From: an uncultured Candidatus Saccharibacteria bacterium
GTDB taxonomy: Bacteria; Patescibacteriota; Minisyncoccia; Phycocordibacterales; UBA9973
Assembly: GCA_964456475.1 (NCBI GenBank)
Contig: CAYVZI010000001.1
Coordinates: forward strand, 11,762 to 75,761
DNA length: 64,000 nucleotides
Reading direction: 5' to 3'
In this document: in pieces, positions 4,542 through 55,990 of the stretch
Numbering within the stretch: the first letter of the stretch is position 1
Layout of the letters: every line of letters begins with the position of its first letter
Notes under the pieces: model-generated
The model's input: the letters and a program-made list of their open reading frames with translations, nothing else
Told to the model about the DNA's origin: nothing
Database searches by the model: none
Made by a program: the position numbers and the translations under genes

Positions 4542-4740
4542 TAAGGTAAATGATGAGGGGGGGGGCACCACTTGATGACAAAGTAGTGTCCTTATTTGTC
4601 TGTGTGGAAAACTATATGGTAATGTCGCACAATATATCTTTCACGACATTATATCCTAATATAATGTGCGTGAAAGATAGCGATTATTTTCCAACGTGAT
4701 TACACATCGGAAAATAATCTTTGGGCCGTAGACCCACACT

Positions 4741-4769
4741 GTCATTCCGGACTTGATACGGAATCCATG
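4741..4769 (+). repeat. hairpin element family GTCATyCCGGA-loop-TCCGGrATCCA, copy A
   Basis: gtcattccggacttgatacggaatccatg. The stem is attccg/cggaat. Confidence 0.7.
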
Positions 4770-4844
4770 AATGTATTCTCCCCTCGATGCCTGCCACAAA
4801 TTTTTTCAAAAAAGTTTTCAAAATTATTTTCTTACAAAAATTGT

Positions 4845-4875
4845 GTCATCCCGGACCCTGATCCGGGATCCATGG
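4845..4875 (+). repeat. hairpin element family, copy B
   Basis: gtcatcccggaccctgatccgggatccatgg. The stem atcccgga/tccgggat shows a compensatory change relative to copy A. Confidence 0.7.
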
Positions 4876-5130
4876 GTATCTGAGTTACATCTATGTGACT
4901 CCTTATATGCCTCTCATATATCAAATGGCCTTAAAACGCATTATACGAGATCAAAAATACGAGTTTAGCATCATTATCGACTTGATCCGATAATCCAGTA
5001 ATTTTCTAGTGTTAAAGCATTTTTTACTAATTAGGGTGAGTTGATGGTAGGTACCGTCAATGCAAGACCTTGAGTATTCTGTAATCAGAAAGCGAACGGT
5101 GTACAGTTCCTGTTAGGAAGTCGACTTCCC

Positions 5131-10646: not shown

Positions 10647-12389
10647 TTACACACGTTCGCCAATTTGTTGGCGCCACATTGCGGAGTAAAGACCTTTTTG
10701 TGCGAGTAAGTCGTCATGCGATCCAGACTCAACTATTTTACCTTTTTCAAGTACATGAATCACATCGGCGTGCATGATTGTAGAGAGTCGATGAGCGATA
10801 AGGATGGTGATATGAGCGCGTACTTTTGAAATATCTTTGATCGTCTTCCCTATCTCCTCTTCAGTGAGCGAATCGAGTGCGGACGTGGCTTCGTCGAAGA
10901 CAAGAATGTTCGGCTCACGAAGGAGCGCGCGTGCGATCGAGAGGCGCTGTTTTTCTCCTCCTGAAACTTTGACCCCGCCTTCGCCTATTACCGTATCGAG
11001 TCCACGACCGCCACGTTCGAGCAAGCCCTGACACTGAGCCTTGCCCAGTGCATCAAGACATTCTTCATCTGTTGCATTTGGATTTACGAAGAGTAGATTC
11101 TCGCGAATGGTGCCGGCAAAGAGTTGGGTATCTTGAGTCACGAATCCTATCTGCTTCCTGAGCTCGTCCTTGGTGATTTTGTCATGAGGGATGCCATTGT
11201 ATGCAACCACACCCGAACTCGGCGTGTAGAGCCCCACAAGCAGTTTTACAAGCGATGTTTTGCCCGAGCCTGATGGGCCAACGAAGACCACGGTTTGTCC
11301 GCGTGCGACTGTGTACGAAATCGAATCAAGTGCGAGATAGTTGGCTGTTTTGTATTGGAAGCAAACATCCTTGAATGCAAGATTTTGCACGGCACCGAGA
11401 GCTGTAGGGTTCTTTGCGACTGGCTCTTTTGGCATATTCATCAGCGTTTCGAAATTGACGAGGGATGCTTCTGCTTCGCGGTAGATTGAAATCACATTGC
11501 CCATTTCTTGCAACGGGTTGAAGATATAGAACGAATAAATATAGAGAGAGAAGAATTGGCCAAACGTGATCGTGCGAGCGTAGATGAGATACAAGAGGAA
11601 GAATAAGATGCCCACACGGATCGCATTGATGACCGTACCCTGGATGAATGAAAGACTGCGAAGATAGCGGAGCTTTTTGAGTTCGAGCTTCAGAATCTTG
11701 TCGGTCGTTGTATTGAGACGATTGATTTCCTGGTCAGCAAGTCCAAGACTTTTTACAAGCTCGATGTTGCGGAGTGATTCGGTAGTCGACCCAGCGAGTG
11801 CGGTCGTTTCGGCAACGATAATCTTCTGAATGTTTTTGATCTTCGTTGAAAGAAGAAGCGAAAGTCCACCGATCGTTGGGATAGTGAGAAGAAATACAAC
11901 TGCAATTCCCCAATAGATATGAATGGCATAGACGGCAACGAATATGAATCCAATCAATGAGACGAAGAGGACATTGATGAGTGAGGCAATCAATTTTTCG
12001 GCATCTGCGCGTGTTTTCTGAAGCTTACCTAGCGTTTCCCCACTACGTTCGTCTTCAAAATTTTCATATGGTAGCGAAAGTGAGTGCGCTACGCCGTCGC
12101 GATAAATGTCGGCACCGACTCGCTGAGATACGCCGTTTAAGAAATAATCCTGGAAGTTCTTGGCGATACGTGAGACAAGCGCCACACCCATACTCGCAAG
12201 AAGAAGTAGGACGACACCATGAAAAAACTCTGCACGTGAGTACAGATCAAACTTGGTAGCATATTCATCAATTACTCGACTAAAAATGTATGGGTCGAGC
12301 AAAGAAAATATTTGGTTTATGGTTGCCAGCACGAGTGTGAGAGTGCAGAGCTTCCAGTACTTTTTGAGATAGCGGTAAAAGATTTTCAT
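10647..12389 (-). CDS. ABC transporter, fused permease/ATPase (MsbA-like exporter)
   Basis: N-terminal 6-TM domain, Walker A GPSGSGKTS, signature LSGGEKQRLSIARAL, Walker B ILVFDEATSALD. Confidence 0.9.
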   Translation of the reverse strand: MKIFYRYLKKYWKLCTLTLVLATINQIFSLLDPYIFSRVIDEYATKFDLYSRAEFFHGVVLLLLASMGVALVSRIAKNFQDYFLNGVSQRVGADIYRDGVAHSLSLPYENFEDERSGETLGKLQKTRADAEKLIASLINVLFVSLIGFIFVAVYAIHIYWGIAVVFLLTIPTIGGLSLLLSTKIKNIQKIIVAETTALAGSTTESLRNIELVKSLGLADQEINRLNTTTDKILKLELKKLRYLRSLSFIQGTVINAIRVGILFFLLYLIYARTITFGQFFSLYIYSFYIFNPLQEMGNVISIYREAEASLVNFETLMNMPKEPVAKNPTALGAVQNLAFKDVCFQYKTANYLALDSISYTVARGQTVVFVGPSGSGKTSLVKLLVGLYTPSSGVVAYNGIPHDKITKDELRKQIGFVTQDTQLFAGTIRENLLFVNPNATDEECLDALGKAQCQGLLERGGRGLDTVIGEGGVKVSGGEKQRLSIARALLREPNILVFDEATSALDSLTEEEIGKTIKDISKVRAHITILIAHRLSTIMHADVIHVLEKGKIVESGSHDDLLAQKGLYSAMWRQQIGERV

Positions 12390-19776: not shown

Positions 19777-19808
19777 CTAGCGCCTAAAGCCTAGAGCCTA
19801 ACGCCTAG
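19777..19808. repeat. CTAGG-type element, single C-arm
   Basis: ctagcgcctaaagcctagagcctaacgcctag, preceded by the hairpin cccctccttggtaaaggagggg. Confidence 0.6.
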
Positions 19809-21076
19809 TTCTTCGGCAAATACAACATCGGATCAAGATAAGCGTTCAGCGCTGCCACAGGTGCTGTATACATTTTTCCATTACAAGCTTTACTTGGGAA
19901 ACTCTGAATACTTCCCGCGTCAGCTGCGATGATTGTGAGATGCAAATGCGGGCCAGTAGCGTACCCGGTAGAACCTGAATATCCCACAAGATCACCAGTG
20001 GAAACGCGTGTTCCATCGCCGACTTTTATCAACGACATGTGACCATAAAGGCTCGAGAGACCATTGTCGTATTTTATATAGATCCATTTTCCATATGAGG
20101 CCTTCGGACATGTGAGGTCTGTGTTTCCTGAACCTACGACCACACCAGAAGCCATGGCTTTGAGTGGTGTACCAATAGAAATACCAAAATCGATTCCATT
20201 GTGTGTTCCACTCGAATAGAGGCGTTTTGCGTCAACAGTGCGTCCAAAATGTTGCGTAATTTTTACATTATTAACAGGCCAAATGAGTGGACTGGAACCA
20301 GCCGGAGGGAGTGATTTTGGATCAAGCACGTACCTAAGTTTGGATTCATAATCGCGCAAATCCCCTTCCATTTGATTCTTGAGTGCAATCTTATTGGCAA
20401 GAAGTTTCTGGTATGCTTTCTCGCTGCTTTTTGTTGAAGCAAGGAGTGAATTTTTTTGAGCTTGTGTCTGCACGGTAATCGCACGCTGGTCTTTGAGTTC
20501 TGAATTGAGAGAAATTAATGTTTTCTTTGTTGTTTCTACTTCCGCCTTTTTTGTTTTGAGCACCTGGCCAGTTGTTATGAGTTGATTTGTCCTCTCGCGA
20601 ACTCCTTCTCGAAATGATTCGAGTTCACTTGCATACCGCCACGCATCAGAAAAATTTCGCATTGATGCAAGAGCTCCTACGTCTGAATGATCCTGGGCGT
20701 TCATCTCGCGAATGCTTTTGCCAAGTGCTGTTTTGAGATCATCAATCGACTCGTTTGTATTGGCAATCGTATTTCCAAGCAGGTCGATTTTGGCACTTGT
20801 TGCAGAAATCTTTGCCTCAGAAGCTTTGATGCTTGTGCTGAGTTTTTGTGCTTCAACAGTAAGACGCTTAATCGCATTTGAAAGTGTGTTCTTGTCGTTG
20901 CCAATAACAGTCAACTGATTTTGATACTGAGCAATTTCGGCATTCAGTGCTTCAAGTGCTTTGTTTTGATTGTCGATCTTCGTCTGGAGTTCGGAAGCAG
21001 TATCAGCACGAAGTACTGATGGAATGGCGATCAAGAGAGACAAACAAAAAAGAGTGAGAAATATGTTTCTTCGCAT
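19805..21076 (-). CDS. M23 (LytM) family peptidoglycan endopeptidase with N-terminal coiled-coil (EnvC-like)
   Basis: Signal peptide, a long coiled-coil, and a C-terminal M23 domain ...HNGIDFG...GHMS...HLHL. Confidence 0.85.
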   Translation of the reverse strand: MRRNIFLTLFCLSLLIAIPSVLRADTASELQTKIDNQNKALEALNAEIAQYQNQLTVIGNDKNTLSNAIKRLTVEAQKLSTSIKASEAKISATSAKIDLLGNTIANTNESIDDLKTALGKSIREMNAQDHSDVGALASMRNFSDAWRYASELESFREGVRERTNQLITTGQVLKTKKAEVETTKKTLISLNSELKDQRAITVQTQAQKNSLLASTKSSEKAYQKLLANKIALKNQMEGDLRDYESKLRYVLDPKSLPPAGSSPLIWPVNNVKITQHFGRTVDAKRLYSSGTHNGIDFGISIGTPLKAMASGVVVGSGNTDLTCPKASYGKWIYIKYDNGLSSLYGHMSLIKVGDGTRVSTGDLVGYSGSTGYATGPHLHLTIIAADAGSIQSFPSKACNGKMYTAPVAALNAYLDPMLYLPKN

Positions 21077-21099
21077 ACTCCTATTATACTATGAATTTT

Positions 21100-21128
21100 G
21101 TCATCCCGGACTTGATCCGGGATCCACA
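21100..21128 (+). repeat. hairpin element family, copy C
   Basis: gtcatcccggacttgatccgggatccac. Confidence 0.7.
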
Positions 21129-21140
21129 TAAATTAATTCT

Positions 21141-21199
21141 TCATGGATTCCGGCTCTGACTCAGCAGAATCACTTCTTGGAAGAAAACACGGAATGACA
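21141..21199 (-). repeat. hairpin element family, inverted copy with a ~38-nt expanded loop
   Basis: catggattccg[gctctgactcagcagaatcacttcttggaagaaaacac]ggaatgac. The arms are the reverse complement of copy A. Confidence 0.55.
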
Positions 21200-21205
21200 C
21201 AAAAA

Positions 21206-22555
21206 CTAAAGCATTTTGAGAGCAGCCCCAATACGCTTGAGAGCTTCTTCTTTCCCTATAATACTCGCGATTGTAAATGGATCAGGTGATTTTTCTAGAC
21301 CAGAGAGTGAATAACGCAACGGATGTAAGAATGGTCCGCGTTTTGGGAGCGTGTCTGCATACTGCATAAGGTCAGCCTTAATTTGCTCGATGTTCCAAAC
21401 TGAAACCGATTCAAGAATTTCCTTTGCTTTTGTAAGCAAAACCACCATTTCCTCAGTATTCGAACCCTTGAAAATAATTTTCTCTTTTTCGATTCTTGGA
21501 GCGACGAAGAAGAAATCAAGTTCTCCTGTCTCAGCCATAGTTGTCACATCATTAAATTTTTCAATACGATCGATGATTACAGGTATGAGCATATCCAACT
21601 TGTCGACGTCAAAACCTGGTGATTTTTTGAATGAATCTGGAAGGTATTTTACAATCCATTCCTTCTGCAGTTCTGGAGAAAGTTTGCGAATATATTCTTT
21701 GTTGAGCCAGTTGAGCTTTTCTACATTGAATACTCCAGGACTCTTTTGTACACGCTCAATACTGAACGTACGAACGAGTTCGTCGAGTGAGAATATTTCT
21801 TGTTCTGTTCCAGGATTCCAACCGATGAGAGCCATGAAATTGATGAGTGCTTCTGGGAGATAGCCCTGCTCGCGATAATGACGCACAGAAACACTCTCAC
21901 CATGCTTTCGCTTGGAAAGTTTCTGTTTGTCAGGAGCAAGAATGAGAGGAATGTGTGCGAATTTTGGCTCAGGTTTGCCGAGTGCTCGGTACAGCAATAT
22001 CTGTCGCGGAGTGTTTGAAACATGATCTTGTCCACGAATCACATGAGTGATACCTGCCTCACAATCATCAACAACCACTGCAAAGTTGTAGAGTGGAGTA
22101 TCAAAGTCTTTTGCAATTACAAAGTCACCAAGGTCAGACGTGTCAACGGTAATGTCTCCAAGAATCAAATCATGAAAAGTAACTGTCTCATTGGTGTTCT
22201 TGTAACGAATCAGATTACGCATGACACCTGCTTCTTCTTTGGATTCTTCACTGGATATGTACGCCTTGCCGTCATCAATAAGTTGCTGAAGAAACACCTT
22301 GTGATTGTCGAGATGCTCGCTCTGACGAAAAAATGCATCGTAGGTAATACCGAGCCATTCAAGCATTGCAAGAATATCATCCTCGTACTCTTTCTTTGAG
22401 CGAATTTTGTCAGTATCCTCGATACGCAAAAGATACTTGCCATCGTTTTGACGAGCAAAAAGATAACAAAAGAGCGCCGTACGAAGCGTGCCCATATGAA
22501 AATATCCTGTCGGAGACGGTGCGATTCGAGTGATGACTAACCCTGCTGTATTCAT
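21206..22555 (-). CDS. gltX: glutamyl-tRNA synthetase
   Basis: HIGH-type APSPTGYFHMGTLRTALF and KLSKR (KMSKS). Confidence 0.9.
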   Translation of the reverse strand: MNTAGLVITRIAPSPTGYFHMGTLRTALFCYLFARQNDGKYLLRIEDTDKIRSKKEYEDDILAMLEWLGITYDAFFRQSEHLDNHKVFLQQLIDDGKAYISSEESKEEAGVMRNLIRYKNTNETVTFHDLILGDITVDTSDLGDFVIAKDFDTPLYNFAVVVDDCEAGITHVIRGQDHVSNTPRQILLYRALGKPEPKFAHIPLILAPDKQKLSKRKHGESVSVRHYREQGYLPEALINFMALIGWNPGTEQEIFSLDELVRTFSIERVQKSPGVFNVEKLNWLNKEYIRKLSPELQKEWIVKYLPDSFKKSPGFDVDKLDMLIPVIIDRIEKFNDVTTMAETGELDFFFVAPRIEKEKIIFKGSNTEEMVVLLTKAKEILESVSVWNIEQIKADLMQYADTLPKRGPFLHPLRYSLSGLEKSPDPFTIASIIGKEEALKRIGAALKML

Positions 22556-39524: not shown

Positions 39525-39530
39525 ATTTCA

Positions 39531-39606
39531 GGGTTTAGGTGCTAGGGTTTAGGGGTTAGCAATTCGCACTCACTATACCCTAAACGCTATACCCTATACC
39601 CTAGCT
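39531..39606. repeat. CTAGG/TTAGGG-type palindromic element (G-arm, 16-nt spacer, C-arm)
   Basis: gggtttaggtgctagggtttaggggttagc ... ccctaaacgctataccctataccctagc. Confidence 0.7.
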
Positions 39607-42670: not shown

Positions 42671-42763
42671 ATATGAAGATAGTATACAGTATTTAGTATA
42701 CGGTATACAGTATTTCACAGTTTTATACTGTATACAAAATACAACATACTGTATACTGTATCC
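42671..42763. promoter_or_regulatory. divergent mntH/corA control region with five or six iterated ATAC-N-GTAT palindromes
   Basis: gtatacagtat at about 42682 and 42703, the variant gtatacggtat at 42696, and atactgtatac at 42725 and 42747-42757. Confidence 0.55.
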
Positions 42764-43675
42764 ATGATTTCACGTTACGCACATCAAGGGCTTACTTGGA
42801 TCGACCTCGAATCACCAACCCGTGATGAGGTTTCCGTTCTTTCAGAAGAATTTGAACTGCATCCGATCATTTCGAGTGAATTACTTGAAACATCTGAACG
42901 CGCAAAAGTGGATTTGTATGAGAATGCAATATATCTCATTCTGCATTTTCCAATTCGCAACCGCACTACAGGACATATCCAGGAGACAGAGATCGACTTT
43001 GTGCTTCTCAAAAATACTCTTATTACCACACACTACGAGCTTGTTGACCCACTTCACGATTTCGCCCGATTATTTGAAGTAGACAGCTTCTTGAGTAGCT
43101 CAAAACTCACTGAACACACCGGGTTCCTATTCTTTACTCAAATCCGCGAATTATATAAGCACACACTCTTTCTAGTTGAAGGATTGACTCACGATATTCG
43201 CGAGATTGAAAAGCAAATCTTCGCAGGTAAAGAAAGCGAGATGGTGATGGAAATATCAAAAGCCAATCGAGAAATAATAGATATCAAACAAGCACTTCGC
43301 GCTCACAAAGAAACGCTAAAATCCTTTGCAGACACATGCATCAAGATATATGGCCAAGATTTTTCTTACTATATCAATATGATTGAAGGTGAATATGCTC
43401 GTATCGAACAGATACTTTCGGAAAATCGCGATATGATTCACGATCTTCGTCGCACAAACGACTCCTTGCTTTCAGTCAAGACAAACAATACCCTTCGCTG
43501 GCTTGCGGCTGTCAACGTAGTACTTATGCCAATCGGTATTATTGCTTGGATTTTTGCTATGCAATCTCGATTCCTCTATCTAGATGAACCACATCAGCTT
43601 CTAACCGCTTTTGGTATAATGATTGCAATACCAGTCATTTTGATTATCTATTTCCGCCGAAAAAAGTGGCTCTAG
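42764..43675 (+). CDS. CorA-like divalent cation transporter (divergent, with FAMQ in place of the canonical YGMN)
   Basis: CorA-like length, a cytoplasmic domain followed by 2 C-terminal TM helices, and a KKW tail. Confidence 0.65.
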   Translation: MISRYAHQGLTWIDLESPTRDEVSVLSEEFELHPIISSELLETSERAKVDLYENAIYLILHFPIRNRTTGHIQETEIDFVLLKNTLITTHYELVDPLHDFARLFEVDSFLSSSKLTEHTGFLFFTQIRELYKHTLFLVEGLTHDIREIEKQIFAGKESEMVMEISKANREIIDIKQALRAHKETLKSFADTCIKIYGQDFSYYINMIEGEYARIEQILSENRDMIHDLRRTNDSLLSVKTNNTLRWLAAVNVVLMPIGIIAWIFAMQSRFLYLDEPHQLLTAFGIMIAIPVILIIYFRRKKWL

Positions 43676-43682
43676 TGAGCCT

Positions 43683-43710
43683 GGTCATCCTGAACTTGTT
43701 TCAGAATCCA
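43683..43710 (+). repeat. hairpin element family, copy F
   Basis: ggtcatcctgaacttgtttcagaatcca, which closely resembles the GIY-YIG cassette ends. Confidence 0.65.
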
Positions 43711-54124: not shown

Positions 54125-54475
54125 GGGTCATCCTGAATTTATTTCAGGATCCAGGGCTATAGACAAATCTTTCCATTCTGGATTATGCTCTTGTATCAAA
54201 TTAATCTTCCAATTTCTATGCCATGCTTTTAATTGTTTTTCGCGTTCAATCGCAGAAATTGGATTTTCAGACTCTTCATAATAAACCAGAGTATTAATTT
54301 TATATTGCTTTGTAAATCCGCCTGCAAGACTATGTTTGTGCTCATATATGCGACGGATTAAATCATTTGTAACACCTATGTATAAAGTGCCGTTCTTTTT
54401 GTTTGCCAAAATATAAACATAATAATGTTTATCGTACATACAAATACTGGATCCTGAAATAAATTCAGGATGACC
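54125..54475. mobile_element. 351-bp cassette with perfect 30-bp terminal inverted repeats enclosing a GIY-YIG nuclease gene
   Basis: Left end gggtcatcctgaatttatttcaggatccag (54125-54154). Right end is its exact reverse complement (54446-54475). Each end is itself an 8-bp-stem hairpin. Confidence 0.6.
54128..54439 (-). CDS. small GIY-YIG nuclease superfamily protein (COG2827-like)
   Basis: MYDKHYYVYILANKKNGTLYIGVTNDLIRRIYEHK...REKQLKAWHRNWKINLI. The ORF-track N- and C-terminal residues are translated from the inverted repeats, so the start was trimmed to MYDK. Confidence 0.75.
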   Translation of the reverse strand: MYDKHYYVYILANKKNGTLYIGVTNDLIRRIYEHKHSLAGGFTKQYKINTLVYYEESENPISAIEREKQLKAWHRNWKINLIQEHNPEWKDLSIALDPEINSG

Positions 54476-54488
54476 CAAACACACATAT

Positions 54489-55920: not shown

Positions 55921-55988
55921 GGGTTTAGGTTTTAGGTGTTAGGGTTTAGTAATTCGAATTGTATTTCTAAATCCTAGACCCTAACCCC
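55921..55988. repeat. CTAGG/TTAGGG-type palindromic element
   Basis: gggtttaggttttaggtgttagggtttag-N17-ctaaatcctagaccctaacccc. Confidence 0.7.
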
Positions 55989-55990
55989 TG

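What the first reader, a model, noticed from the sequence alone, without database searches (positions are those of the whole stretch)
21100..21199. Two hairpin elements in opposite orientation, one with a 38-nt loop insertion
Between the M23 peptidase and gltX, a direct copy gtcatcccggacttgatccgggatccac is followed 12 nt later by an inverted copy. The inverted copy is the reverse complement of the 4741 element, but its loop is replaced by a 38-nt sequence: catggattccg-[38 nt]-ggaatgac. This is the behaviour expected of a mobile palindromic element that can acquire cargo in its loop. It supports the MITE-like interpretation of the hairpin family.
Basis: seen in the sequence. Interest (0 to 1): 0.55.

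Follow-up and report, generated by a model that had tools for sequence, protein, structure and literature searches.

The report
Paired nuclease-target hairpins, one with long loop
The two opposed hairpins after gltX are copies of a known bacterial repeat, the CGTC-tagged "REP" or Ssn-related motif that a small GIY-YIG single-strand DNA nuclease recognises; that nuclease is encoded 33 kb away in the same window, so the finding is a fairly ordinary new example, and one copy has a 37-base centre that does not look like mobile cargo.

Summary
There is a compact hairpin at 21100-21126 (+). There is also a split copy at 21142-21198 (-), whose 11-nt and 9-nt arms exactly match the 4741 copy. The centre is 37 nt, not 38, and the gap between the two hairpins is 14 nt, not 12.

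The family is not a MITE. It matches the CGTC-tagged REPs of Di Nocera 2013, also called NTS/SRM hairpins by Chenal 2025. These are oriented ssDNA hairpins that Ssn GIY-YIG nucleases bind, cutting just upstream of them.

The window encodes such a nuclease at 54128-54439 (-), bracketed by perfect 30-nt inverted copies of the hairpin. In 80 loci from many phyla, 57 of 83 ssn genes have the same bracket. Tags-outside doublets without a gene are the commonest close pairing, and long-centred copies (14-55 nt) recur.

The orthologous gltX-M23 spacer has five alleles:
- The same long+short doublet in five further contigs.
- A doublet of two compact hairpins of other subtypes.
- A plain terminator.
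- An unrelated hairpin.
- Overlapping genes.

A sharp recombination breakpoint lies 70 nt inside gltX.

The 37-nt centre is unique, unstructured and found nowhere else, so "cargo" is unsupported. Verdict: a new member of a known kind, of modest interest.

The parts
21099..21127 (+). Compact SRM / CGTC-type REP. Tag TGTC, 8-bp stem ATCCCGGA/TCCGGGAT, loop CTTGA, tail CCA.
   Evidence: It matches the published SRM search string (shuffles give a mean of 0.19 matches). The ssDNA fold is -9.0 kcal/mol, z = -4.15.
21142..21198 (-). Split (long-centred) SRM. On the minus strand it reads GTCATTCCG + 37 nt + CGGAATCCATG, leaving only a 6-bp outer stem ATTCCG/CGGAAT. The 5' GTC tag and the C after the palindrome are retained.
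   Evidence: The arms are identical to the 4741 copy. The ssDNA fold is weak (-5.1 kcal/mol, z = -1.16). The same element is present in five other contigs.
21153..21189 (.). 37-nt centre that replaces the usual 5-9 nt loop.
   Evidence: Unique in the window. No copy in genome contigs. Only a chance hit in metagenome contigs. No local similarity beyond 13 nt. Unstructured (z = +0.38). One SNP among strains, at 21160.
21128..21141 (.). Spacer between the two hairpins of the tags-outside (convergent, 'HH') heterodimer.
   Evidence: Spacers of 2-40 nt are typical of the 43 convergent doublets found in other genomes.
21206..22555 (-). gltX (glutamate-tRNA ligase). The doublet starts 7 nt after its stop codon.
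   Evidence: Pfam PF00749 and PF19269. Homologues.
21206..21275 (-). Last 70 nt of gltX, a hypervariable patch next to the doublet. This part is about 55-66% identical to strain L002/L009, against 97-100% for the first 1260 nt.
19805..21076 (-). M23 peptidase gene immediately downstream. A TATAAT box 9 nt before its ATG is kept in all spacer alleles.
   Evidence: Pfam PF01551..
54128..54439 (-). ssnA-like gene: a 103-aa single-domain GIY-YIG nuclease. Its last 8 codons and its stop codon lie inside the downstream hairpin.
   Evidence: PF01541, E = 1.3e-16. ORF. About 70% identical homologues across phyla, with hairpin-encoded tails. Y9/Y20/E67 have the spacing of Nm SsnA Y6/Y17/E64 (inference).
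54125..54154 (+). SRM copy downstream of ssnA. One arm of a perfect 30-nt inverted pair, GGGTCATCCTGAATTTATTTCAGGATCCAG.
   Evidence: z = -4.13.
54447..54476 (-). SRM copy upstream of ssnA, the other arm of the perfect 30-nt inverted pair. It ends 7 nt (9 nt counted from the ATCC tail) before the ATG.
4741..4769 (+). Compact SRM of the TTCCG subtype, with the same arms as the split copy. There is one mismatch in the stem.
4845..4873 (+). Compact SRM with loop CCCTGA.
   Evidence: It matches the published SRM string.
4968..4997 (+). Degenerate copy ATCATTATCGACTTGATCCGATAATCCAG. The stem has changed on both sides and the loop CTTGA is kept.
   Evidence: Read.
43684..43709 (+). SRM copy GTCATCCTGAACTTGTTTCAGAATCC, lying between corA and the next gene.
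   Evidence: corA identified.

Best explanation
The two hairpins form a tags-outside ('HH') heterodimer of CGTC-tagged REPs, the family now called Ssn-related motifs (SRM; NTS in Neisseria).

Each unit is an oriented hairpin made of a (C/T)GTC tag, a stem that begins with AT, a short loop and a CCA tail. When its strand is single-stranded it is the recognition site of a small single-domain GIY-YIG nuclease (Ssn). Ssn binds the hairpin and nicks the ssDNA a few bases 5' of the tag.

The cognate nuclease gene lies in the same window (54128-54439), bracketed by two such hairpins in the same convergent geometry.

At the gltX-M23 spacer, the compact copy would be read on the + strand, with a predicted cut just left of 21099. 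The split copy would be read on the - strand, with a predicted cut just right of 21198, near the gltX stop codon.

The split copy is a long-centred variant. It keeps the tag, a 6-bp outer stem and the C after the palindrome, but its 5-9 nt apex is replaced by 37 unique, unstructured bases. It is best read as a one-off apex replacement or filler event in a TTCCG-subtype copy, not as carried cargo.

Shown here: the sequence features, the nuclease gene with its bracket, the cross-phylum association, the strain polymorphism and the adjacent recombination breakpoint.

Inferred by homology with published Neisseria and Wolbachia enzymes: binding and cleavage by this Ssn, whether the weak split copy still works as a substrate, and any effect on recombination.
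For: The compact copy fits the published SRM string. It also fits every CGTC-REP feature described in the literature: tag, 8-bp stem starting AT, 5-nt loop, CCA tail.

A 103-aa GIY-YIG ORF is bracketed by perfect 30-nt inverted hairpin copies. Its homologues carry hairpin-encoded N- and C-terminal tails such as LDPEINSG, WIPDQV, WIPACAGMT and SFPRRRES.

Chenal 2025 reports that Ssn enzymes cut ssDNA upstream of NTS/SRM, that 71% of homologues have an SRM flank, that loop identity is dispensable, and that the hairpin can be split or extended at the loop and still be cut.

My own test on 80 loci from many phyla gave these results:
- 57 of 83 ssn genes have a forward SRM upstream and a reverse SRM downstream.
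- Close pairs are convergent in 43 cases, divergent in 21 and direct in 17.
- Several doublets combine a long and a short copy.

Di Nocera 2013 reports that CGTC REPs occur mainly as HH dimers, often as heterodimers, close to the 3' ends of upstream ORFs.

A sister strain carries another SRM heterodimer at the same site.

No Y1/RAYT transposase was found among 26 window ORFs scanned.
Against: - The split copy fails the published SRM string because its loop exceeds 5 nt. As ssDNA it folds no better than 27 of 200 shuffles, so it may be a dead copy.
- The two hairpins flanking the window's own ssnA also fail the published string in detail: a G precedes GTCAT and there is a T in the stem.
- Assignment of the ORF to cd10448, and similarity to an experimentally tested SsnA, could not be checked. 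No tested sequence or CDD library was available, and there is no close PDB entry.
- Ssn activity has not been reported in Patescibacteria; the phylum is not mentioned in the paper's main text.
- Only 64 kb of this genome could be examined.
Confidence: 0.8

Rival explanations
1. The hairpins are MITE-like mobile palindromic elements, and the 37 nt are cargo acquired in the loop and carried along when the element moves.
For: The family is dispersed and polymorphic between strains. In one unrelated genome (L032) the same ~30-nt module sits in the loops of hairpins with different stems. So loop modules can recur somewhere.
Against: The 37-nt centre is single-copy in the window and is absent from the two large collections searched. 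There are no direct-repeat flanks and no transposase. The family has a different, published partner, a GIY-YIG ssDNase. The centre replaces the old loop rather than interrupting it.
Confidence: 0.06
2. The pair is a relic of an SRM-ssnA-SRM cassette whose nuclease gene was deleted, leaving its two terminal hairpins and a stub.
For: The geometry is the same convergent one seen in the window's ssnA cassette. The sequence after the forward hairpin reads ATG AAG AAT TAA; MKN is a common Ssn N-terminus. The reverse hairpin reads WIPDQVRDD in frame, which is similar to the C-terminal tail of P0216.
Against: Gene-less convergent doublets are the commonest close arrangement in many genomes. They recur within a genome as units with similar short spacers, and were described as the predominant dimer type. 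They therefore need no gene-loss event. ATCCATG is part of the repeat consensus (4741, 4845), so the ATG is not evidence of a start codon. A stub of 14-19 nt cannot be tested for homology.
Confidence: 0.1
3. The hairpins act mainly at the RNA level. They would be a 3' stabiliser or terminator for gltX mRNA and an insulator before the M23 peptidase promoter. They replace the classic terminator seen in relatives.
For: Allele C (L003, L004, L010, L011) has a textbook terminator, ACGGATGAATTCATCCGTTTTTT, at the same place. The doublet lies 7 nt after the gltX stop codon. The sense-strand RNA of the spacer folds at -38.3 kcal/mol, z = -2.7. REPs are often proposed to work this way (abstract).
Against: No U-tract follows either hairpin, and the scan finds no terminator-like site. 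Ssn does not act on RNA. The family's conserved asymmetric tag and tail are unexplained by a simple RNA hairpin role. This reading is compatible with the best explanation as a side effect.
Confidence: 0.15
4. The hairpins are REP/REPIN elements mobilised by a RAYT (Y1 HUH transposase).
For: They are inverted doublets of short extragenic palindromes that can pair into a larger hairpin. This resembles REPINs and BIMEs (own knowledge; Discussion).
Against: The tag is (C/T)GTC, not GTAG. CGTC REPs were reported to lack a RAYT. No Y1 transposase was found among 26 ORFs scanned in the window. A GIY-YIG gene is bracketed by the repeats instead.
Confidence: 0.02

Closest known systems
Ssn-related motifs (SRM; NTS in Neisseria) with Ssn/SsnA GIY-YIG ssDNA nucleases (Chenal et al. 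2025, PMC11893778)
   Same: An oriented hairpin with a GTCAT tag, a stem beginning AT, a short loop and a C after the palindrome. A single-domain nuclease gene of about 100 aa is bracketed by two copies. Copies are intergenic and multiple. The compact copy matches the published degenerate string. In vitro, the loop could be removed or extended without loss of cutting.
   Different: The host is a Patescibacteria MAG, a phylum not named in the paper's main text. The stems are AT-richer (CCTGAA, CCCGGA, TTCCG), so most local copies fall outside the published search string. One copy has a 37-nt unstructured centre and only a 6-bp stem. No biochemical data exist for this enzyme.
CGTC-tagged REPs, families CGTC-1 to -4, organised as HH dimers (Di Nocera, De Gregorio & Rocco 2013, PMC3733652)
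   Same: A (C/T)GTC tag, an 8-9 bp stem with AT in the first two positions, a 4-5 nt loop and a CCA tail. Tags-outside (HH) dimers are predominant and are often heterodimers. The elements lie just downstream of ORFs between co-directional genes.
   Different: That survey gives loops of 4-5 nt for CGTC families and did not include Patescibacteria. It found no dedicated enzyme. Here one partner has a 37-nt centre.
REP / BIME / REPIN elements with RAYT transposases (Nunvar 2010; Bertels & Rainey 2011; Ton-Hoang 2012; own knowledge)
   Same: Short extragenic palindromes with an asymmetric tag. They occur as inverted doublets that can form a larger hairpin. The associated enzyme gene is flanked by the repeats and acts on ssDNA hairpins.
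   Different: The tag is GTAG and the enzyme is an HUH Y1 transposase. Neither is present here.
Neisseria dRS3 repeats and NIMEs (neisserial intergenic mosaic elements)
   Same: dRS3 (ATTCCC-N8-GGGAAT) is the palindromic core of NTS. Genes adjacent to dRS3 show raised sequence diversity. This parallels the recombination patch next to the doublet here.
   Different: The host, the stem sequence and the copy number all differ. NIMEs have 50-150 bp repeat segments between dRS3 copies.
MITEs (e.g. Correia elements) and IS1397-type insertion into REP loops (own knowledge)
   Same: Small, dispersed, palindromic and polymorphic between strains. IS1397 shows that REP loops can be insertion targets.
   Different: There is no target-site duplication, no transposase-derived termini, and the 37-nt centre is not a repeated sequence.

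Membership tests
Ssn-related motif (SRM/NTS) | Matches the published degenerate search string HGTCWY N0-2 YYVSBRH N0-5 WNVSBRG N0-2 RNCYNB. | tested here: met
   The compact copy at 21099-21127 matches, as does 4844-4873. Shuffles give a mean of 0.19 matches. The split copy does not match because its loop is 37 nt.
Ssn-related motif (SRM/NTS) | Orientation marks needed for Ssn action: three conserved bases (GTC) upstream of the palindrome and a C immediately after it. | tested here: met
   Both copies keep GTC|AT...AT|C.
Ssn-related motif (SRM/NTS) | The genome encodes an Ssn homologue whose gene is flanked by the motif. | tested here: met
   The ORF at 54128-54439 is bracketed by perfect 30-nt inverted copies. 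The same cassette sits at the gatB-dnaJ site in relative L093.
Ssn-related motif (SRM/NTS) | Bound and cut as ssDNA, strand-specifically, by the cognate Ssn. | not testable with these tools
   Needs purified protein and oligonucleotides.
CGTC-tagged REP (Di Nocera 2013) | (C/T)GTC tag, 8-9 bp stem with AT first, 4-5 nt loop, CCA tail. | tested here: met
   The compact copy has TGTC, the 8-bp stem ATCCCGGA, the loop CTTGA and the tail CCA (one search compared). The split copy keeps the tag and tail but fails on stem length (6 bp) and loop length (37 nt).
CGTC-tagged REP (Di Nocera 2013) | Predominantly tags-outside (HH) dimers, often heterodimers, close to the 3' end of the upstream ORF. | tested here: met
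   The tags lie at 21099-21102 and 21196-21199, facing outward. The partners are of different subtypes. The doublet starts 7 nt after the gltX stop codon.
Ssn nuclease family (for ORF 54128-54439) | Single-domain GIY-YIG protein of about 94-105 aa. | tested here: met
   PF01541 covers residues 6-80 of 103. Homologues are 94-110 aa.
Ssn nuclease family (for ORF 54128-54439) | Membership of CDD cd10448, or significant similarity to an experimentally tested SsnA (Nm, Ne, Nw, Wp). | not testable with these tools
   No CDD library or tested sequence was available, and the paper's supplements are not held. There is only indirect support: Y9, Y20 and E67 have the same spacing as the mutated Nm residues Y6, Y17 and E64.
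MITE | Terminal inverted repeats with target-site duplication, and a related autonomous transposon. | tested here: not met
   The flanks, gaatttt / acaaaaa, are not direct repeats. No transposase was found among 26 ORFs. The empty allele C cannot be aligned base-for-base with allele A.
REP/REPIN with RAYT | GTAG tag and an associated Y1 (PF01797) transposase. | tested here: not met
   The tag is TGTC. No PF01797 hit was found in the window ORFs scanned. The rest of the genome was not available.
Intrinsic terminator | GC-rich hairpin followed by a T/U run. | tested here: not met
   No terminator-like site in 20900-21400. Allele C does have one.

The most novel reading that the evidence does not exclude
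Tags-outside SRM doublets, rather than single hairpins, are the unit that multiplies (REPIN-like). They would be mobilised or copied through Ssn nicks on opposite strands at their two outer edges. Long-centred copies such as this one would record filler or captured DNA laid down at the hairpin apex during those ssDNA transactions. The doublet would also set the ends of recombination tracts, producing the ~220-nt swapped patch seen between near-identical strains.
Probability: 0.15. Interest if true: 0.65.

Novelty: new member of a known kind. Interest (0 to 1): 0.3.

Why it matters
- It places the Ssn/SRM system, described biochemically only in Neisseria and Wolbachia, in a reduced-genome Patescibacteria lineage with AT-richer hairpin subtypes that the published search string mostly misses.
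- It gives a natural example of a split or long-centred motif, whose tolerance was so far shown only with synthetic oligonucleotides.
- It shows, between strains that are 97-100% identical in the flanking genes, a sharply bounded swap of the hairpin doublet together with the last 70 nt of gltX. That pattern is expected if these motifs influence where recombination tracts end.

None of this is categorically new. It is useful as a curated case and as a warning that motif searches for SRMs under-count in low-GC phyla.

Tried and rejected
- Rfam at gathering thresholds: no family in the window.
- tRNA/tmRNA scan: none found.
- Promoter and terminator scan of 20900-21400: nothing in the spacer.
- The 37-mer with up to 3 mismatches in the window: only itself.
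- The insert core 20-mer in genome contigs: 0 hits. In metagenome contigs: one hit (L012), which lies inside a coding region and has no similarity beyond the 20-mer, so it was rejected as chance.
- blastn-short of the insert against all 98 loci: nothing longer than 13 nt except the same allele and the L012 chance hit.
- The published SRM string recovers only 2 of the 8 window copies. I therefore used a tag + arm + complement + C search with a reversed-arm control.
- PDB sequence search with the nuclease: no close structure.
- The paper's supplements are not held, so no tested SsnA sequence was available for direct comparison.
- P0123 context: genes were listed but no DNA was returned.
- The apparent 296/814 mismatches in L097 gltX are an ungapped-alignment artefact and were ignored.
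- The idea that the hairpin's GGATGACA supplies a -35 box for the M23 promoter was dropped. Its spacing to TATAAT is only about 10 nt (read).
- Low divergence of the spacer among allele-A strains (1-2 of 129 nt, against 11-16% at M23 third positions) cannot be read as selection. The adjacent gltX 3' part is equally similar, so a shared recombination block explains it as well.

Full report
**1. Observation**

The region 21077-21205 is the spacer between the stop codon of gltX (21206-22555, minus strand) and the start of an M23 peptidase gene (19805-21076, minus strand).

- On the + strand, 21100-21127 reads GTCATCCCGGACTTGATCCGGGATCCAC. This is an 8-bp stem with loop CTTGA.
- 21142-21198 reads CATGGATTCCG, then 37 nt, then CGGAATGAC.
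- These arms are the exact reverse complement of the arms of the copy at 4741, GTCATTCCG|GACTTGATA|CGGAATCCATG.
- The centre is 37 nt (21153-21189), not 38.
- The old 9-nt centre is replaced, not interrupted.
- Chance is excluded. The arm pattern with a 20-50 nt gap occurs once in the window and never in 100 shuffles.
- The same arrangement appears in five further contigs from other samples or assemblies (L001, L094, L095, L097, L098), differing at one or two of 129 positions.

**2. The family in the window**

A tag-plus-hairpin search finds these copies:
- compact copies at 4741, 4845, 21100 and 43684;
- a degenerate copy at 4968;
- the split copy at 21142-21198;
- two copies at 54125-54154 (+) and 54447-54476 (-).

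All are intergenic apart from the 54125 copy, which overlaps the last codons of the nuclease gene described below. They share GTCAT, a stem that begins AT, a short loop (often CTTGA) and ATCC(A). The stems differ by changes on both sides (CCCGGA, TTCCG, CCTGAA, TTATCG).

The last two copies are perfect 30-nt inverted repeats, GGGTCATCCTGAATTTATTTCAGGATCCAG. They bracket a 103-aa ORF (54128-54439, minus strand) that is a single GIY-YIG domain (PF01541, E = 1.3e-16). The ORF's last eight codons and its stop codon lie inside the downstream hairpin.

Homologues are about 70% identical across Patescibacteria, Dehalococcoidia, Nitrospirae and Latescibacteria. Many end or begin in peptides that are translations of such hairpins, for example LDPEINSG, LDPETSSG, WIPDQVGNDR, WIPACAGMT, SFPRRRES and FWRKPES.

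**3. What this is in the literature**

Chenal et al. 2025 (PMC11893778) describe the Ssn family as follows:
- They are single-domain GIY-YIG proteins of about 94 aa.
- They bind the hairpin repeat NTS (CGTCATTCCCGCGMAVGCGGGAATCYRG) or, more generally, Ssn-related motifs (SRM).
- They act only on ssDNA and only on one strand, and cut a few nucleotides upstream of the motif.
- 71% of homologues have an SRM flank and 42% have one on both sides.
- Cleavage depends on the three bases upstream of the palindrome. Binding depends most on the C after it.
- Loop identity is dispensable. The motif can be split into two oligonucleotides or extended at the loop position and still be cut.

Di Nocera et al. 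2013 (PMC3733652) had already defined the same repeats as CGTC-tagged REPs:
- The tag is CGTC or TGTC. The stem is 8-9 bp with AT first, the loop is 4-5 nt, and the tail is CCA.
- They are found mainly as 'HH' dimers, meaning the tags face outward, and often as heterodimers.
- They had no known enzyme at that time.

The compact copy at 21099-21127 fits both definitions, including the published SRM string. The pair at 21099-21198 is a tags-outside heterodimer that begins 7 nt after the gltX stop codon.

**4. An independent test across phyla**

I fetched 80 loci encoding relatives of the window's nuclease from species-representative genomes. They include CPR groups, Proteobacteria, Bacteroidota, Planctomycetota and Cyanobacteria. 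I searched them for tag + arm ... complementary arm + C.

- Compact forms dominate: 285 of the matches have 6-11 nt between 7-nt arms.
- There is a clear excess of long forms over a reversed-arm control.
- After removing arrays and nested copies, bona fide long-centred motifs with centres of about 14-55 nt occur in many genomes. Several sit exactly where ssn-flanking motifs are expected: L025, L056, L059, L057, L071 and L072.
- 57 of 83 ssn genes have a forward motif upstream and a reverse motif downstream.
- Among close pairs (40 nt apart or less), 43 are convergent, 21 divergent and 17 direct.
- Many convergent doublets join two subtypes. Several join a long and a short copy: L046, L036, L040, L063 and L032.
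- Doublets recur within a genome with similar spacers but unrelated flanks.

The finding's layout is therefore the standard one for this family.

**5. The 37-nt centre**

- It is single-copy in the window.
- It is absent from the species-representative genomes.
- It was hit only once in JGI metagenomes, by chance, inside a coding region.
- It has no local similarity beyond 13 nt to anything fetched.
- On its own it is unstructured (z = +0.38).
- The split hairpin as ssDNA reaches only -5.1 kcal/mol (z = -1.16). The compact partner reaches -9.0 kcal/mol (z = -4.15).

This differs from most long forms elsewhere, whose centres extend the stem. A few ssn-flanking copies also have poorly paired centres.

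The split copy keeps the tag, a 6-bp stem and the post-palindrome C, so recognition is conceivable given the published loop tolerance. It may equally be a disabled copy. Nothing supports the idea of carried cargo.

**6. The orthologous spacer in relatives**

| Allele | Contigs | Spacer content |
|---|---|---|
| A | window plus five contigs | long + short doublet |
| B | L002/L009 joined to L096 by a 25-nt overlap (L002 and L096 from the same sample, SRR31968665; L009 from SRR31968666) | TAG-ATTTGG-GTCATCCTGAACTTGATTCAGGATCC-22 nt-TGGATTCCCGGTCAAGCCGGGAATGAC-...ATG; two compact copies of other subtypes in the same convergent layout |
| C | L003, L004, L010, L011 (GltX about 94% identical) | a 37-nt spacer that is a textbook terminator plus TATAAT, with no hairpin of this family |
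| D | L005/L006 | an unrelated hairpin |
| E | L007/L008 | the genes overlap |

Between the window and the allele-B strain:
- gltX is 97-100% identical over its first 1260 nt;
- it is only about 55-66% identical over its last 70 nt (21206-21275);
- the M23 gene is 97.5% identical from its first codons.

A patch of about 220 nt, centred on the doublet, has therefore been exchanged. In contrast, the ssnA cassette sits at the same gatB-dnaJ site in a relative whose Ssn is only 73% identical. The nuclease gene is thus a stable resident, while solo hairpins turn over.

**7. How it most likely works**

Shown here: the motifs, the cognate-type nuclease gene and its bracket, the cross-phylum association, and the polymorphism with its adjacent breakpoint.

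Inferred from the published enzymes:
- When the + strand is single-stranded, the compact hairpin is bound and the strand is nicked just left of 21099.
- When the - strand is single-stranded, the split hairpin, if still competent, directs a nick just right of 21198, near the gltX stop codon.
- The two predicted nicks lie at the outer edges of the doublet on opposite strands. This is the same geometry as around ssnA.
- By analogy with Neisseria, such sites could shorten recombining ssDNA and so set tract ends. That would fit the swapped patch, but it is an inference only.
- An RNA-level side effect is possible, as a 3' hairpin for gltX replacing the terminator of allele C. It is not supported by a U-tract.

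**8. Rivals**

- MITE with loop cargo: no duplication, no transposase, and the centre is unique.
- Relic of an ssnA cassette: the geometry is the same and there is an MKN-like stub. But gene-less doublets are the norm, and the ATG belongs to the repeat consensus.
- REP/RAYT: the tag is wrong, and no Y1 transposase was found among 26 ORFs.
- Terminator: not met.

**9. Verdict**

It is wrong on the kind of element and on cargo.

This is a new member, in Patescibacteria, of a known repeat/nuclease system, with a long-centred copy as a minor variant.

Limits: only 64 kb of the genome could be examined, there is no biochemical test, and there was no direct comparison with a tested SsnA.

Noticed in passing
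window 54125-54476: A complete SRM-ssnA-SRM cassette. It is a 103-aa GIY-YIG nuclease ORF bracketed by perfect 30-nt inverted hairpins, lying between gatB and dnaJ. The same cassette is at the same site in a relative with 73% identical Ssn (L093).
   Followed up: yes
window 21206-21275: There is a sharp drop in nucleotide identity to strains L002/L009, from 97-100% to about 55-66%, in the last 70 nt of gltX. This is directly next to the hairpin doublet and marks a recombination breakpoint.
   Followed up: yes
window 39530-39605 and 55934-55989: A second family of intergenic imperfect palindromes, built from telomere-like GGGTTTAG / CTAAACCC units.
   Followed up: no
window 42673-42765: A long AT-rich palindrome with 41-nt arms at 80% identity, made of ATACTGTATAC units. 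It sits between a minus-strand gene and corA, and looks operator-like.
   Followed up: no
window 4557-4565: A run of nine G just downstream of the CAP-domain ORF. It is a possible slippage tract.
   Followed up: no
window 21083-21088 and the same place in L003, L005, L007, L096: A TA(T/C)AAT box 7-9 nt upstream of the M23 peptidase ATG is kept in every spacer allele. It is too close for a leadered mRNA, which hints at a leaderless or unusually short 5' end.
   Followed up: no
L048 1921-2009; L050 5019-5114 and 5792-5852; L032 several: Tandem arrays of SRM 5' half-sites (tag + left arm + about 10-nt spacer, up to six times), each array ending in one complete hairpin. I did not see this described in the two papers read.
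   Followed up: partly
L032 3853-3907, 8434-8488, 11681-11735 and related: The same ~30-nt GC-rich module sits between CTTG and A of the loop in hairpins with different stems. Nested hairpin-in-hairpin forms also occur.
   Followed up: partly
L047 4512-4580 / 4946-5015; L065 10418-10491 / 11456-11550; L029; L050: Tags-outside doublets recur within one genome with similar spacers but unrelated flanks. They behave as if the doublet were the copied unit.
   Followed up: partly
L003 3858-3900 and L011 2095-2140 (murG-gltX spacer): These relatives carry a family hairpin, GGTCATCCTGAATTTACTTCAGGATC, between murG and gltX. At that position the window has an unrelated 304-nt spacer. This is a second polymorphic site.
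   Followed up: partly
L005 5357-5420 / L006 4803-4866: Allele D of the gltX-M23 spacer holds a different GC-rich hairpin, TTCCCCTCCTGTACACAGGAGGGGA, possibly from another repeat family.
   Followed up: no
window 21077-21205 compared with L094, L095, L097, L098: The spacer allele with the long centre differs at only 1-2 of 129 nt among strains whose M23 third-codon positions differ by 11-16%. This could reflect constraint or a recent shared recombination block. It is unresolved.
   Followed up: partly
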